The notes beneath the pieces were generated by a model. It searched no databases and was not told the DNA's origin. It saw nothing but the letters and a program-made list of their open reading frames with translations. The position numbers were made by a program, and so were the translations under genes. Of a stretch of 64,000 nucleotides of DNA, positions 12,621-37,148 are shown one piece after another. Origin of the DNA: Candidatus Woesearchaeota archaeon (lineage in GTDB: Archaea > Nanobdellota > Nanobdellia > SCGC-AAA011-G17 > JACPIM01); the NCBI GenBank assembly GCA_964513145.1, contig CAZELK010000001.1, positions 128,001-192,000 on the forward strand. Reading direction: 5' to 3'. Position 1 is the first letter of the stretch, and the number at the start of each line of letters is the position of its first letter.

Positions 12621-12727
12621 TGCTCCCGCCGGGATTTGAACCCGAGTTTACGGCGCGAAAGGCCGCCGTCCCTCGTCTTCCTTTGAATTTTATTCAAAAA
12701 ATTTTGACCGGACTAGACGACAGGAGC
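12621..12727 (-). tRNA. tRNA-Glu(UUC) with an intron of about 32 nt in the D-loop
   Basis: GCTCCTG/CGGGAGC acceptor, GCGGC-CTTTCGC-GCCGT anticodon arm, GGTTCAAATCCC T arm; AT-rich hairpin insert after GGTCA. Confidence 0.9.
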
Positions 12728-17719: not shown

Positions 17720-17846
17720 GGGCCCGTAGCTTAGCCTGGTTAGAGCATTGAAACTTCAAAGAAGTTATGTAGGTCTTATATGGCGACTCTAACAACAAGT
17801 CAATTAGGAAAGCCAAAGGTCGTCGGTTCAAATCCGATCGGGCCCA
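17720..17846 (+). tRNA. tRNA-Ile(UAU) with two introns (about 29/30, 22 nt; 37/38, 30 nt)
   Basis: GGGCCCG/CGGGCCC acceptor; after intron removal TTGGT-CTTATAA-GCCAA anticodon arm; 75-nt mature tRNA. Confidence 0.8.
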
Positions 17847-20107: not shown

Positions 20108-20542
20108 TTCTAATATTTCTTTGCTATGTGCAGATGCATTAACATCGTGAAAAATTTTCATTATTTTCCCATTTTCATCAATTAAAAAAGTAGATCTTTT
20201 TATTTTCTTTCTAAGCCCTAAAAAAGATTTTAGAACACAATATTTTCTTGCTGCACTATAATCTTTGTCAGATAATAACATGAAAGGCAGATGAAATTTT
20301 TCTTTGAAAGAAACATGCGATATTTCGCTGTCTGCACTAACTCCAATAATTATTGCATTCTTATTTCTGATCTCTTTGTAGTCGTCTCTAAATCCACAAG
20401 CTTCTTTTGTGCATCCGGGAGTATCATCCCTTGGGTAAAAATAAAGAACTATTTTTTTCCCTGAAAATTCTGATAAACTATGAAAATTTCCATTAGTGCA
20501 TTTTAAGGCAAAATTCGGTGCATAGTATCCTTCTTTTAGCAT
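20096..20542 (-). CDS. bcp: peroxiredoxin (Bcp/PrxQ)
   Basis: YFYPRDDTPGCTKEACGFRD, RSTFLID. Confidence 0.94.
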   Translation of the reverse strand: MLKEGYYAPNFALKCTNGNFHSLSEFSGKKIVLYFYPRDDTPGCTKEACGFRDDYKEIRNKNAIIIGVSADSEISHVSFKEKFHLPFMLLSDKDYSAARKYCVLKSFLGLRKKIKRSTFLIDENGKIMKIFHDVNASAHSKEILELLK

Positions 20543-33964: not shown

Positions 33965-34486
33965 ATGATAGAATTAGAAAGAACTTATTTGTTGAAAGAA
34001 ATTCCAAAGAATCTTAAGAGTTGTAAATTCAAAGAAATTATTGACCTTTATATTCCTAAATCAAATCAGCATCCTGTTTTAAGAATAAGAAAGAATGGGA
34101 GTAAATTTGAAATGACTAAAAAACAGCCAATCAAAGGCAACGATTCTTCTTGCCAAGAAGAACAAACAATAACCCTCAGTGAAGAAGAATTTAAAGAATT
34201 AAATAAAATTGATGGCAAAAAAATACATAAAATAAGATATTATTATGATTGCAATAATAAAATAGCTGAAATTGATGTTTTTCAGGATTTATTGAATGGC
34301 TTGATCCTTGTTGATTTTGAATTTGAAACAACTGAAGAGAAAGATTCTTTTAAAATTCCAGAATTTTGTTTAGCTGATGTTACACAAGATAAATTTATTG
34401 CTGGAGGAATGCTTTGCGGCAAATCATACAAAGACATAGAAAATGAACTTAAACAATTTAAATATAAAAAATTATTTTTAGTTTAA
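33965..34486 (+). CDS. CYTH domain protein
   Basis: MIELERTYL (ExExK-like), LRIR, KIRY, EIDVF, VDFEF. Confidence 0.82.
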   Translation: MIELERTYLLKEIPKNLKSCKFKEIIDLYIPKSNQHPVLRIRKNGSKFEMTKKQPIKGNDSSCQEEQTITLSEEEFKELNKIDGKKIHKIRYYYDCNNKIAEIDVFQDLLNGLILVDFEFETTEEKDSFKIPEFCLADVTQDKFIAGGMLCGKSYKDIENELKQFKYKKLFLV

Positions 34487-34660: not shown

Positions 34661-35278
34661 ATGCTTAAAGAATGGATTTCAAATGATTACTTGAAGGAAA
34701 ATAAAATTAAAGAATTGCGAAATAAATTTAATAAAGCAAGTCCTTTTTCGCATATAGTTTTAAAAGATTTTTTTGATAAAAAGAAATTAGCCCAGGTTTT
34801 AGATTCTTTAATACACCAGGAATTTATTGAAAAAAATACGGATTTATTCCAGTTCAAGCAGTCCCAAGATATAAGTTCAATAAATTTAAACAGTTTAAAA
34901 GATTTTTACTCTTTTTTTTCTTCAAGAGAATTTTGTGATTATATAAGCAGGCTAACTAATACGCAAGTAGAAAGCATAGATATGTCTGGTTTTTTTTATC
35001 AAAAAACAGATTACTTATTGCCTCATGATGACCAATTAGAAGGAAGGAAAATCGCCTATGTTGTGAATTTGTCAAATAAGTTTAAAAGAAAAGATGGTGG
35101 AAGGCTGCAATTATTCTCTGTTTTTAATGGAAAGCCAAAAAAGATAATTAAGTCATATTTACCAGAATTTAATAAGTTTATTTTATTTAAAGTCTCAGAA
35201 ATCTCATTTCATCAAGTAGAAGAAATTATGTCAAATAAGGAAAGAATTTCTTTGGCTGGTTGGTTTCATGGAAATTAA
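34661..35278 (+). CDS. 2OG-Fe(II) oxygenase, OGFOD1/Tpa1-like catalytic domain
   Basis: IDMSG..Y..TDYLLPHDDQLEGRKIAY (HxD), GGRLQLF, SFHQVEEI (distal His), RISLAGWFHG (2OG-binding Arg). Confidence 0.88.
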   Translation: MLKEWISNDYLKENKIKELRNKFNKASPFSHIVLKDFFDKKKLAQVLDSLIHQEFIEKNTDLFQFKQSQDISSINLNSLKDFYSFFSSREFCDYISRLTNTQVESIDMSGFFYQKTDYLLPHDDQLEGRKIAYVVNLSNKFKRKDGGRLQLFSVFNGKPKKIIKSYLPEFNKFILFKVSEISFHQVEEIMSNKERISLAGWFHGN

Positions 35279-35870
35279 ACAATTATTAAAATCAGAAATT
35301 CTAAATGAATTTATTGCGCAAGATTACCTAGACTACAGTAATCTGTTAAATATTAAAGATACTTTTGGTGCAAATACTCCAAAAAGCATTAAACTAGAAC
35401 AATTCTTTAAAAAAGAAAAATATGATTTATTAAAAAAAGAGATTTATGATTTAAAATTTAAAGAAATATATATTCCAGATAGTTATTCTTTTTCAAAGTC
35501 AAATTTAGGAAATGAATTCTCCAGATTATTTAATTCAAAAGATTTTATTTCATTTATTTCATTCATTGTTGGAAGAAATATAAAAAATATTAAGGCAGAG
35601 TCTTTGTTATTTGATCATAAAGATTATACATTATTAAAAGATAATGCAAATGAAACATTTCTTGAAATAAATTTCTTTTTTAATGATGACTGGAAAGAGG
35701 AATATGGTGGTTATTTTTCATATTTTAAAGATGAAGAATTATTAAGAATTTTCCCAGTTGAAAATAATGTTACAATTATTTATTTAAGGGAAATGCAGAG
35801 ATTTGTTAAATATATTAATGTAAAATCTTCAAAAAGAAAGATTTATTTAATATCATTATCAGAAAAATAA
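35268..35870 (+). CDS. degenerate 2OG-oxygenase fold resembling the OGFOD1/Ofd1 C-terminal domain
   Basis: SIKLEQFFKKEK, LFNSKDF, YTLLKD, DWKEEYGGYFSY, DEELLRIFP..N, RFVKYIN; no HxD...H triad. Confidence 0.75.
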   Translation: MEIKQLLKSEILNEFIAQDYLDYSNLLNIKDTFGANTPKSIKLEQFFKKEKYDLLKKEIYDLKFKEIYIPDSYSFSKSNLGNEFSRLFNSKDFISFISFIVGRNIKNIKAESLLFDHKDYTLLKDNANETFLEINFFFNDDWKEEYGGYFSYFKDEELLRIFPVENNVTIIYLREMQRFVKYINVKSSKRKIYLISLSEK

Positions 35871-35871
35871 G

Positions 35872-36129
35872 ATGTCTTTAGACAATTTGCCGATTTTAGA
35901 AAGTTTAAGGGAACTAACAAAAAGACCAATAAAAACAGTTGAAAAAGCTATAATAAGCGGCTTTAATGTGGATGGAATTTATGTCAAAGAAGTTTTTGCT
36001 ATGGGTATTGTTAATTCTGAAACTTTTGGCATGAAACCAGGAAAGAAATTTTTAGTTTATATTGAAAAGAATTCTAAAAGCCTTGTAGCCACACAAACAG
36101 ATTATATAATTAATTATGATGCTGGGTAA
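35872..36129 (+). CDS. hypothetical protein
   Basis: 85-aa ORF directly after the oxygenase pair. Confidence 0.5.
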   Translation: MSLDNLPILESLRELTKRPIKTVEKAIISGFNVDGIYVKEVFAMGIVNSETFGMKPGKKFLVYIEKNSKSLVATQTDYIINYDAG

Positions 36130-36599: not shown

Positions 36600-37148
36600 A
36601 TGTTCCATATGGAACAAATTATAGATTATAGGTTTGAAGTTATTAATGAATTATTGAAAGAGAAAAATCACATAAGAAATCTAGCTAAAAATCTAAAAAC
36701 CAACCATATGACTATTCTTAGAAGAATAAAAGAACTTTTTGATTTAAATGTAGTAGACTATAAAGAAGAAGGCAAAAATAAAGTTTATTTTTTAAAAGAT
36801 ACTATAGAAGCTAAAACAACTATAAATATGGCTGGAAATTATAAATTATTAAAAATAATAACAAAATATCCAAATTTAAGAAGAATAATAGAAAAACTAC
36901 AAGAAAATAAACAAATACATCTTGCAGTTTTATTTGGTTCTTATGCAAAAGAAATCCCAAAAAAAGAAAGTGATATTGATGTATATATAGAAACAATTTC
37001 TCAAGACTTAAAAAAAGAATTAGAAAAAATAGATTCAAAATTAAGCATTAAAATTGGAAAGTATAATAAAGATAACCCAGTTATAAAAGAAATTAAAAAA
37101 AATCACGTAATAATCAAAGGAATTGAAAGATATTATGAAATCAGTTGA
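36600..37148 (+). CDS. HTH-fused minimal nucleotidyltransferase (MNT), no adjacent HEPN
   Basis: N-terminal wHTH; LFGSYAK....SDIDV. Confidence 0.85.
   Translation: MFHMEQIIDYRFEVINELLKEKNHIRNLAKNLKTNHMTILRRIKELFDLNVVDYKEEGKNKVYFLKDTIEAKTTINMAGNYKLLKIITKYPNLRRIIEKLQENKQIHLAVLFGSYAKEIPKKESDIDVYIETISQDLKKELEKIDSKLSIKIGKYNKDNPVIKEIKKNHVIIKGIERYYEIS

What the first reader, a model, noticed from the sequence alone, without database searches (positions are those of the whole stretch)
34661..35870. Split, eukaryote-like OGFOD1/Tpa1 ribosomal prolyl hydroxylase in a DPANN-type archaeon
Seen: ORF1 has an intact 2OG-Fe(II) site (LLPHDDQLEGRKIAY, SFHQV, RISLAGWFHG). From recalled sequence it is nearly colinear with the human OGFOD1 catalytic domain (LLCHDDELEGRRIAF...SFHQV...RLSISGWFHG). 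ORF2 overlaps it by 11 bp, lacks the metal triad, and matches the OGFOD1/Ofd1 C-terminal degenerate domain (GWEPEYGGFTSY, DEELL, KFVKHIN versus DWKEEYGGYFSY, DEELL, RFVKYIN). Established: OGFOD1, Tpa1, Sudestada1 and Ofd1 are two-domain eukaryotic enzymes that hydroxylate a proline of uS12 (RPS23) near the decoding centre. Inference: this is a two-gene archaeal version, a lateral transfer or an ancestral unfused state. It may give O2-dependent ribosome modification or O2 sensing in a lineage usually regarded as fermentative.
Basis: partly seen in the sequence, partly recalled or inferred. Interest (0 to 1): 0.85.

Follow-up and report, generated by a model that had tools for sequence, protein, structure and literature searches.

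The report
Split archaeal OGFOD1-type prolyl hydroxylase
A tiny DPANN archaeon encodes, as two overlapping genes, both halves of the OGFOD1/Tpa1 enzyme that hydroxylates a proline in the ribosome's decoding centre; published structural work calls this enzyme eukaryote-only, yet the split form is conserved in about a fifth of related archaeal genomes sampled.

Summary
ORF1 (34661-35278) is a PF13661 2OG/Fe(II) oxygenase with an intact H122/D124/H184/R195 site. Its best solved relative is the human OGFOD1 catalytic domain (E 7e-36). ORF2 (35268-35870) overlaps ORF1 by 11 nt in the +1 frame. It passes the Pfam Ofd1_CTDD threshold, lacks the metal triad, and its model best matches the OGFOD1, Ofd1 and Tpa1 C-terminal domains.

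The split is real. In 75 independent archaeal assemblies the partner gene starts at or just beside the ORF1 stop, each with its own start codon, and none is fused. The pair occurs in 75 of 401 high-quality genomes of the phylum.

Fused forms, eukaryotic wherever named or placed by gene context except one on a bacterium-like contig, form one clade (SH-aLRT 99) in both halves. The archaeal forms are compatible with a sister clade, so the direction of descent is unresolved.

A model supports an ORF1-ORF2 heterodimer, possibly from memory of OGFOD1. The genome's uS12 keeps the target motif KQPNSA (Pro63). It has Fe-SOD and peroxiredoxin but no terminal oxidase was found.

The best reading is a heterodimeric, O2-dependent uS12 prolyl hydroxylase. 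The activity and the substrate are inferred. Another window of this scan noted the same stretch.

The parts
34661..35278 (+). ORF1, 205 aa: the catalytic 2OG/Fe(II) oxygenase half, equivalent to the OGFOD1/Tpa1 N-terminal DSBH domain. Metal ligands are H122, D124 and H184; the 2OG-binding residue is R195.
   Evidence: PF13661 102.7 bits. phmmer to human OGFOD1 4NHX residues 79-259 gives E 7e-36, and to Tpa1 8e-16. H122, D124, H184 and R195 are present in 77-78 of 78 archaeal homologues.
35268..35870 (+). ORF2, 200 aa: the non-catalytic second DSBH half, equivalent to the OGFOD1/Ofd1/Tpa1 C-terminal domain. The triad positions read K124, N126 and V180.
   Evidence: PF10637 Ofd1_CTDD 52.2 bits against a cut-off of 27. 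phmmer to OGFOD1 residues 466-544 gives E 1.6e-9. The AF2 model has pLDDT 96.4. Foldseek best hits are OGFOD1 4nhy (E 4e-17, TMq 0.84), the Ofd1 CTD 6e0t (TMq 0.84, TMt 0.68) and Tpa1. The triad columns are variable across 82 homologues.
35268..35278 (+). The 11-nt overlap junction. The ORF2 ATG is embedded in the His-Gly codons of the ORF1 C-terminal GWFHG motif, and the ORF1 stop lies 8 nt further on. This is a conserved junction of the translational-coupling type at the exact NTD/CTD domain boundary.
   Evidence: Sequence. The same design (TGGTTYYATGR...stop) recurs in relatives. Across 75 archaeal pairs the overlap is 8 nt in 31, 11 nt in 18 and 13 nt in the other frame in 7, with the rest short overlaps or spacers. 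An own start codon is always present (ATG in 72).

Best explanation
ORF1 and ORF2 are two separately translated, translationally coupled genes. Their products assemble into a heterodimer that recreates the two-domain OGFOD1/Tpa1/Ofd1 architecture. ORF1 carries the Fe(II)/2-oxoglutarate active site. ORF2 is a paralogous double-stranded beta-helix that has lost the metal site and packs against ORF1 through the minor beta-sheets. The complex most likely uses O2 and 2-oxoglutarate to hydroxylate Pro63 of ribosomal protein uS12, in the motif VEAKQPNSAMRK at the decoding centre. The modification would then be made only when the cell meets oxygen.

Shown here: the identity of both halves, the intact versus degenerate active sites, the reality and conservation of the split, and the presence of the target motif. 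Model-level only: the heterodimer. Inferred by homology: the enzymatic activity, the uS12 substrate and any physiological read-out such as decoding accuracy or O2 sensing.
For: Identity of the halves.
- Pfam, PDB sequence and fold matches are given.
- The ORF1 family keeps H122, D124, H184 and R195 in 77-78 of 78 sequences. In the ORF2 family the equivalent positions vary: His in 29 of 82, Asp in 9 of 82, Val/Ile/Thr at the distal His.
- The two families are full-length paralogues: hhalign probability 99.5%, E 2.5e-23, 184 columns.

Reality of the split.
- In a GTDB-wide scan 80 loci were kept. In 76 a CTD gene follows directly, including one locus (L066) where no start codon could be assigned; 75 pairs have a measured junction. 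Two more loci end at the contig edge. None is fused.
- The pair was found in 75 of 401 genomes of the phylum that are at least 90% complete, always as open frames of about 170-300 aa.

Heterodimer (model only).
- Complex prediction scored 0.87, with the best of 3 controls at 0.00. That mark was reached by 58 of 80 solved complexes and 2 of 110 mismatched pairs; the counts hold only roughly because my own alignments were used.
- The runs agree in at least 97% of contacts, and the partner's pLDDT is at least 91.
- The pass may come from the model's memory of OGFOD1 and Tpa1 structures.
- The interface uses ORF1 residues 115-123 and 183-190 and ORF2 residues 118-123 and 179-186. These are the strands bearing the metal ligands and their ORF2 equivalents. 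OGFOD1 is described as packing through its minor sheets (PMC4396695).
- The nearly invariant ORF2 residues Y120, Y182 and N184 lie in this interface.

Substrate.
- The genome's uS12 (G000:C8, 145 aa) carries VEAKQPNSAMRK. This matches the eukaryotic site around Pro62 as I recall it.

Oxygen context.
- The genome has Fe/Mn-SOD, a peroxiredoxin and glutamate dehydrogenase as a 2OG source.
- In the 401-genome sample, 72 of 75 genomes with the pair have SOD, against 158 of 326 without it.
- The SOD-positive, pair-negative cell includes three unpublished genomes (G281, G390, G425). Leaving them out gives 155 of 323 and the same result.
Against: There is no biochemical evidence. Hydroxylation, the substrate and the dimer are all inferred.

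The KQPNSA motif of uS12 is, to my knowledge, general in archaea. Its presence therefore does not discriminate between genomes with and without the pair.

Immediate gene neighbours of 75 pairs show no recurrent partner and no enrichment of ribosomal genes.

The pair is patchy: it was not found in about 80% of the phylum's genomes sampled and in 3 of 5 genomes of the window's own family. Whatever it does is therefore dispensable.

The SOD association is not corrected for relatedness or genome size.

The Nro1 partner family of the fungal enzymes was not found in the genome. That search rang in none of the control genomes, so it is uninformative.
Confidence: 0.6

Rival explanations
1. The same heterodimeric 2OG oxygenase acts on a substrate other than uS12. 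This could be another translation factor or protein prolyl site, or a nucleic-acid or small-molecule substrate.
For: No neighbourhood link to ribosomal genes was found. The distribution is patchy and the pair is dispensable. The archaeal clade is separate from the fused clade, so specificity could have diverged. Other activities have been proposed for Tpa1, although DNA repair by Tpa1 was disputed (PMC6746446, listed).
Against: At E<=0.01 the only solved relatives of ORF1 are the uS12 hydroxylases OGFOD1 and Tpa1. The two-domain architecture is specific to this subfamily (PMC4396695). The target motif is conserved in this genome's uS12.
Confidence: 0.25
2. Evolutionary rival: the pair is a secondary fission of a fused eukaryotic OGFOD1 gene acquired by lateral transfer, rather than a primitively unfused state.
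For: Among prokaryotes in the GTDB scan the pair was found almost only in DPANN genomes, and it is patchy there. The AU test does not reject archaeal forms as a single clade sister to the fused forms (p 0.96). A single ancient transfer is therefore possible. At least one fused form sits on a bacterium-like contig (P0137), showing that this family does cross domains.
Against: The fused forms are one clade excluding all archaeal forms in both halves (SH-aLRT 99). No sampled eukaryotic lineage is therefore the donor, and any transfer must predate their radiation. The archaeal halves resemble each other more than the OGFOD1 halves do: 26% identity between ORF1 and ORF2 and 20% between the family profiles, against 12% reported for OGFOD1 (PMC4396695). 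That fits a less derived state. All 75 pairs are split at the same domain boundary.
Confidence: 0.3
3. A programmed +1 ribosomal frameshift or stop read-through makes a single fused OGFOD1-like polypeptide from the two frames.
For: ORF2 is in the +1 frame in the window and in 58 of 75 pairs. In 3 pairs the two ORFs are in the same frame with a single stop between the ORF1 coding frame and the ORF2 open frame.
Against: The frame relation varies: +1 in 58 pairs, the other frame in 14, the same frame in 3. The overlap length varies, and the last sense codons and stop codons are not conserved. Every pair has its own start codon at the junction, ATG in 72 of 75. No conserved slippery motif is present.
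Confidence: 0.03
4. An assembly or sequencing frameshift, or a decaying pseudogene of a fused gene.
For: An overlap in another frame is what a single-base error would produce. One same-genus genome (G001) does carry an ORF2 copy interrupted by stop codons.
Against: The same two-gene layout appears in 75 other assemblies from many studies and in 75 of 401 genomes of the phylum. Catalytic residues are invariant in ORF1, and a distinct conserved set is kept in ORF2.
Confidence: 0.01

Closest known systems
Human OGFOD1 (PDB 4NHX/4NHY), a uS12 (RPS23) Pro62 trans-3-prolyl hydroxylase
   Same: The ORF1 catalytic domain aligns colinearly with residues 79-259 (E 7e-36). The HxD...H triad and the Arg correspond to His155, Asp157, His218 and Arg230. 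ORF2 aligns to the CTD by sequence (E 1.6e-9) and by fold (TMq 0.84). The predicted interface uses the same strands as the reported minor-sheet packing.
   Different: There are two genes instead of one polypeptide. The 31-residue proline-rich linker and the acidic disordered insert (371-430) are absent, and each half is only about 200 aa. The host is archaeal. The two halves are less diverged from each other than in OGFOD1.
S. cerevisiae Tpa1 and S. pombe Ofd1 (uS12 prolyl 3,4-dihydroxylases; Ofd1 C-terminal degradation domain, PDB 6E0T)
   Same: The domain pair is the same. The ORF2 model matches the isolated Ofd1 CTD (TMq 0.84, TMt 0.68) and Tpa1. ORF1 matches Tpa1 at E 8e-16.
   Different: The long Tpa1 linker and dimerisation inserts are missing. 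The Nro1 partner family was not found, though that search was uninformative. There is no Sre1 pathway in archaea, so the O2-sensing circuit of fission yeast cannot be carried over.
Single-domain prokaryotic prolyl hydroxylases, such as Pseudomonas PPHD acting on EF-Tu (PDB 4J25/4IW3)
   Same: They are prokaryotic 2OG/Fe(II) prolyl hydroxylases that target the translation machinery, and they share the DSBH fold.
   Different: They are only distant fold matches to ORF2 (Foldseek E about 1e-7). ORF1 has no sequence match to them at E<=0.01. They lack a partner CTD domain or gene.

Membership tests
OGFOD1/Tpa1/Ofd1 subfamily of 2OG-dependent prolyl hydroxylases | Catalytic DSBH domain of the PF13661 type with an HxD...H Fe(II) triad and a 2OG-binding Arg | tested here: met
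   PF13661 102.7 bits. OGFOD1 E 7e-36. H122, D124, H184 and R195 are invariant in the archaeal family.
OGFOD1/Tpa1/Ofd1 subfamily of 2OG-dependent prolyl hydroxylases | A second, non-catalytic DSBH domain (Pfam Ofd1_CTDD) lacking the metal site | tested here: met
   PF10637 52.2 bits against a cut-off of 27. Fold best hits are the OGFOD1, Ofd1-CTD and Tpa1 structures. The triad columns are degenerate.
OGFOD1/Tpa1/Ofd1 subfamily of 2OG-dependent prolyl hydroxylases | Both domains on one polypeptide joined by a linker | tested here: not met
   There are two overlapping ORFs in different frames. The split is conserved in 75 pairs and 75 genomes, and no fused archaeal form was seen.
OGFOD1/Tpa1/Ofd1 subfamily of 2OG-dependent prolyl hydroxylases | [quoted passage not shown] | tested here: met
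   This is a prediction only. ipSAE is 0.87 against a best control of 0.00. The mark was reached by 58 of 80 solved complexes and 2 of 110 mismatched pairs. Runs agree in at least 97% of contacts and the partner's pLDDT is at least 91. The interface lies on the ligand-bearing strands. The pass may reflect memory of 4NHX and 3KT4.
OGFOD1/Tpa1/Ofd1 subfamily of 2OG-dependent prolyl hydroxylases | The substrate uS12 carries the target proline in a KQPNSA context | tested here: met
   The uS12 of G000 (L016:1396-1833) reads VEAKQPNSAMRK, with the target at Pro63.
OGFOD1/Tpa1/Ofd1 subfamily of 2OG-dependent prolyl hydroxylases | Demonstrated C-3 (and C-4) hydroxylation of the uS12 proline | not testable with these tools
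   This needs an enzyme assay with mass spectrometry, or proteomics.
OGFOD1/Tpa1/Ofd1 subfamily of 2OG-dependent prolyl hydroxylases | Groups with OGFOD1-type proteins rather than with generic bacterial PF13661 oxygenases | tested here: met
   In the exhaustive search the best 150 hits are 85 archaeal-type short forms and 67 fused two-domain forms. The fused forms are eukaryotic wherever named or placed (Amorphochlora, Rozella, Schistocerca, eukaryotic gene contexts), apart from P0137 on a bacterium-like contig. The archaeal and fused forms are each coherent groups.
OGFOD1/Tpa1/Ofd1 subfamily of 2OG-dependent prolyl hydroxylases | Eukaryote-only distribution, as stated in the literature (PMC4396695) | tested here: not met
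   The pair lies in archaeal genomes next to RadA, PCNA, NAC and L21e genes.
YhhC cyclophane-peptide 2OG oxygenase (NCBIfam NF041706) | Score above the equivalog cut-off | tested here: not met
   37.1 bits against a cut-off of 150.

The most novel reading that the evidence does not exclude
The DPANN two-gene pair is the surviving pre-fusion form of OGFOD1. A single-domain prolyl hydroxylase gene duplicated in tandem, one copy lost its metal site and became an obligate partner, and the eukaryotic enzyme arose from this heterodimer by one gene fusion. O2-dependent hydroxylation of the uS12 decoding-centre proline would then be an archaeal invention, inherited or acquired by the eukaryotic stem, and not a eukaryotic one.
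Probability: 0.3. Interest if true: 0.8.

Novelty: new variant of a known kind. Interest (0 to 1): 0.66.

Why it matters
The structural paper on OGFOD1 states that this subfamily is found only in eukaryotes (PMC4396695). A review from the same field states that protein modification by 2OG oxygenases is common in eukaryotes and many prokaryotes, but not archaea (PMC4543633). I found no paper in the held library linking DPANN archaea to this enzyme.

A conserved archaeal version would matter in four ways:
- It extends ribosomal prolyl hydroxylation, or at least its enzyme, to Archaea.
- It offers a natural experiment on the still unexplained non-catalytic C-terminal domain, because here that domain is a separate protein of about 200 aa that can be left out or added back.
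- It gives a plausible duplicated-but-unfused stage for the origin of OGFOD1.
- It points to an O2-consuming reaction in ultra-small archaea in which no terminal oxidase was found, and it tracks superoxide dismutase across the phylum.

Public pipelines already label some ORF1 homologues as Tpa1-like. The catalytic half is therefore not unannotated. What appears undescribed is the partner gene, the split architecture and their distribution.

Tried and rejected
- **Search for longer homologues.** A 'longer' homologue search with ORF1 returned nothing. This is a word-index artefact, because the exhaustive search later found 67 fused forms.
- **Read-through query.** A read-through translation (P0121, code TGGT=W) recovered only two eukaryotic fused proteins.
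- **Locus scan.** A 24-sequence alignment was too diverse for the locus scan, so an 8-sequence alignment was used. That scan depends on the single motif LL[PC]HDDxLEG, so divergent members, such as the second archaeal group with other residues there, are missed.
- **Eukaryotes nested among archaeal forms.** The quick paralogue-rooted tree drew the fused clade nested among archaeal forms. I do not claim this. A tree with the archaeal catalytic domains held together had a log-likelihood 44 higher, with p-AU 0.96.
- **Neighbourhood analysis.** Among the 140 immediate neighbours of 75 pairs, the commonest family (dCTP deaminase-like) appears only 7 times.
- **The 85-aa ORF just downstream.** ORF 35872-36129 has no detectable homologue next to other pairs, so it is not part of the system.
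- **Uninformative searches.** The Nro1 search rang in none of the control genomes. The bacterial-type promoter and terminator scan found nothing above the shuffles.
- **Paper not held.** Loenarz et al. 2014 (PMC3964080) is not in the library, so its statement on archaeal uS12 could not be checked.
- **Loci labelled as bacterial.** One of the three (L027) lies beside a PCNA gene and is archaeal. L065 and L094 could not be decided.
Full report
**What is there**

The window holds two ORFs on the + strand. ORF1 runs 34661-35278 (205 aa) and ORF2 runs 35268-35870 (200 aa). They overlap by 11 nt (ATGGAAATTAA). ORF2 is in the +1 frame, and its ATG lies inside the His-Gly codons of the ORF1 C-terminal GWFHG motif.

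ORF1 matches Pfam PF13661 (2OG-FeII_Oxy_4) at 102.7 bits. ORF2 matches PF10637 (Ofd1_CTDD) at 52.2 bits against a cut-off of 27. The only NCBIfam hit, YhhC, is far below its cut-off.

Against all PDB sequences at E<=0.01, ORF1 hits only human OGFOD1 (E 7e-36, residues 79-259) and yeast Tpa1 (8e-16). ORF2 hits only the OGFOD1 C-terminal domain (E 1.6e-9, residues 466-544, with a weaker stretch at 283-326).

**The two halves**

In 78 archaeal ORF1 homologues, H122, D124, H184 and R195 are invariant. Only one masked or gapped sequence departs from this. These residues correspond to the OGFOD1 ligands His155, Asp157 and His218 and to Arg230 (PMC4396695).

In 82 ORF2 homologues the equivalent columns are variable: His in 29, Asp in 9, and Val/Ile/Thr at the distal His. 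A different set is nearly invariant: Y120, D125, G147, G148, N166, Y182 and N184.

The two families are full-length paralogues, with hhalign probability 99.5%, E 2.5e-23 and 184 columns.

The ORF2 AlphaFold model has pLDDT 96.4. Its best PDB matches are OGFOD1 (E 4e-17, TMq 0.84), the isolated Ofd1 C-terminal domain 6E0T (TMq 0.84, TMt 0.68) and Tpa1. These rank well ahead of PHD2 and the bacterial prolyl hydroxylases.

**Is the split real?**

Yes.
- Genomes of the same genus and of four other families of the order carry the same two overlapping genes.
- The ORF2 ATG is again embedded in the (H/Y)-G codons of GWF[HY]G.
- A scan of one genome per GTDB species with the motif LL[PC]HDDxLEG found 86 relatives.
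- Of the 80 loci kept, 76 have the CTD gene directly downstream, and two more end at the contig edge. None is fused.
- A junction could be measured in 75 of the 76 (no start codon could be assigned in L066). The overlap is 8 nt in 31 pairs, 11 nt in 18 and 13 nt in the other frame in 7. The rest are short overlaps or spacers.
- ORF2 is in the +1 frame in 58 pairs, the other frame in 14 and the same frame in 3. Every pair has its own start codon, ATG in 72.

This pattern excludes an assembly frameshift. It also argues against programmed frameshifting and fits translational coupling of two products.

**Whose genome, and how widespread**

The assembly is 978 kb in 18 contigs, 98.8% complete and 29% G+C. 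The window has long tRNA matches of 107 and 127 nt that probably hold introns, and the uS12 is of the archaeal/eukaryotic type. The same-genus loci are deposited as a Woesearchaeota archaeon and a Nanoarchaeota archaeon.

Nearly all 80 loci carry the names Woese-, Pace- or Nanoarchaeota, or 'uncultured Methanosarcinales archaeon'. I take the last of these to be a placeholder label. Three loci are labelled bacterial. One of them (L027) lies beside a PCNA gene and is archaeal.

In an even sample of 401 genomes of the phylum, all at least 90% complete, 75 have a strong CTD match. Each is a frame of about 170-300 aa beside a weaker match to the catalytic gene. Three further matches near E 1e-4 were discarded. 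The distribution is patchy: 61 of 281 genera including those three weak matches, and 2 of 5 genomes in the window's own family.

**Relation to eukaryotes**

An exhaustive phmmer search of 1.84 billion cluster representatives gave 1528 hits. The best 150 comprise 85 proteins of about 200 aa and 67 proteins of 343-961 aa. Of those long proteins, 57 show both domains in full.

Where they could be named or placed, the long forms are eukaryotic:
- Amorphochlora, Rozella, Schistocerca, Parascaris and an EukProt entry.
- Contigs carrying Nic96, FYVE, G-gamma or WW genes.

One fused form (P0137, 426 aa) lies on a dense prokaryote-like contig. A language-model lead places its pyruvate kinase near Bacteroidota.

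A second group of short forms (P0142, P0256 and others) is also a split pair on archaeal contigs, with NAC and TrmB genes and an Fe-SOD gene nearby.

In a tree of both halves together, the catalytic and C-terminal halves separate with support of 100. Within each half the fused forms are one clade, with SH-aLRT 99. The quick tree drew that clade among the archaeal forms. However, a tree with the archaeal catalytic domains held together is better by 44 log-likelihood units, with p-AU 0.96.

I therefore conclude only this much. The archaeal pair is not a recent acquisition from any sampled eukaryote. The archaeal and fused forms are compatible with sister clades. The direction of descent is unresolved.

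One observation favours a less derived state in the archaeal pair, but only weakly. ORF1 and ORF2 are 26% identical and their family profiles 20%, whereas the two OGFOD1 halves are 12% identical.

**How it probably works**

Complex prediction on the two alignments scored 0.87, with the best of 3 controls at 0.00. That mark was reached by 58 of 80 solved complexes and 2 of 110 mismatched pairs; the counts hold only roughly because my own alignments were used. The runs agree in at least 97% of contacts, and the partner's pLDDT is at least 91. Because OGFOD1 and Tpa1 are solved, this pass may be memory. It shows likeness, not binding.

The interface consists of ORF1 residues 115-123 and 183-190 and ORF2 residues 118-123 and 179-186. 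These are the strands bearing the metal ligands and their ORF2 equivalents. That agrees with the minor-sheet packing reported for OGFOD1. It also places the conserved ORF2 residues Y120, Y182 and N184 at the contact.

The genome's uS12 (G000:C8, 145 aa) reads VEAKQPNSAMRK, with the target proline at position 63.

The genome has:
- glutamate dehydrogenase, a source of 2-oxoglutarate;
- Fe/Mn superoxide dismutase;
- a peroxiredoxin at window 20156-20524.

No rubrerythrin, cytochrome bd or haem-copper oxidase was found.

Across the 401 genomes, 72 of 75 genomes with the pair have SOD, against 158 of 326 without it. The naive Fisher test gives p about 1e-16, not corrected for relatedness. The second count includes three unpublished genomes (G281, G390, G425). 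Without them it is 155 of 323.

Immediate neighbours of the pair show no recurrent partner.

**Comparison with what is known**

[quoted passage not shown] A 2015 review states that such protein modifications are not found in archaea (PMC4543633).

Searches of the held library for OGFOD1 or Tpa1 with archaea, DPANN or Woesearchaeota found nothing on this system.

Some ORF1 homologues already carry the automatic JGI name 'Rps23 Pro-64 3,4-dihydroxylase Tpa1-like'.

This is therefore a new variant of a known kind. All sequence and fold criteria of the OGFOD1 subfamily are met. The exceptions are the single-chain architecture and the eukaryotic host. The chemistry and the substrate remain untested.

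**Verdict**

The most likely function is a heterodimeric O2- and 2OG-dependent uS12 Pro63 hydroxylase (confidence about 0.6). The main rival is the same enzyme acting on another substrate (about 0.25). Another window of this scan noted the same stretch (e1-5721146).

Noticed in passing
window 35872-36129 (+): An 85-aa ORF starts 2 nt after the ORF2 stop. It has no Pfam hit and no detectable homologue beside the pair in any other locus or elsewhere in the genome. It is either an orphan or not a gene.
   Followed up: partly
G001:C24:628-1089 (same genus as the window; locus L009): The ORF2 homologue of a sister species is interrupted by two to three stop codons near a contig end. This suggests the pair is decaying in that lineage, which fits the patchy distribution.
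   Followed up: no
L017:10001-11281 (metagenome contig SRR6202010_42297): A fused 426-aa OGFOD1-like protein (P0137) lies on a dense prokaryote-type contig with DsbD, AhpC, radical-SAM, ArsB and pyruvate kinase genes. The kinase resembles Bacteroidota clusters. In the trees the protein nests in the fused clade, whose placed members are otherwise eukaryotic. This is a possible eukaryote-to-bacterium transfer.
   Followed up: partly
L065 and L094 (records labelled Candidatus Buchananbacteria and Patescibacteria group bacterium): The same split pair occurs on contigs assigned to CPR bacteria. The flanking genes gave no decisive archaeal or bacterial marker. It could be mis-binning or DPANN-CPR gene sharing. 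A third locus labelled 'bacterium' (L027) lies beside PCNA and is archaeal.
   Followed up: partly
L099:1163-1774 and L100:754-1356: In a second, divergent archaeal group carrying the split pair, an Fe/Mn superoxide dismutase gene lies about 3.5 kb upstream of the pair in both contigs.
   Followed up: partly
L008 and L012 (G030 and G055, one genus): Here the pair lies directly next to what I read, from the translated N-termini alone, as genes for ribosomal protein L21e and RNA polymerase subunit Rpo4/F. This is seen in one genus only and is not general.
   Followed up: partly
window 36600-37148 (+): A 182-aa protein with an N-terminal HTH-like region and a Polbeta/NTP_transf_2 nucleotidyltransferase domain, of the MNT type, lies downstream of the pair.
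   Followed up: no
window 12621-12727 (-) and 17720-17846 (+): Two tRNA matches span 107 and 127 nt, far longer than a tRNA. They probably contain introns, as is usual in such archaea.
   Followed up: no
window 33965-34486 (+): The 173-aa ORF upstream of ORF1 has no Pfam hit. In same-genus genomes a NUDIX gene occupies this position instead, so the flank is not conserved even within the genus.
   Followed up: no
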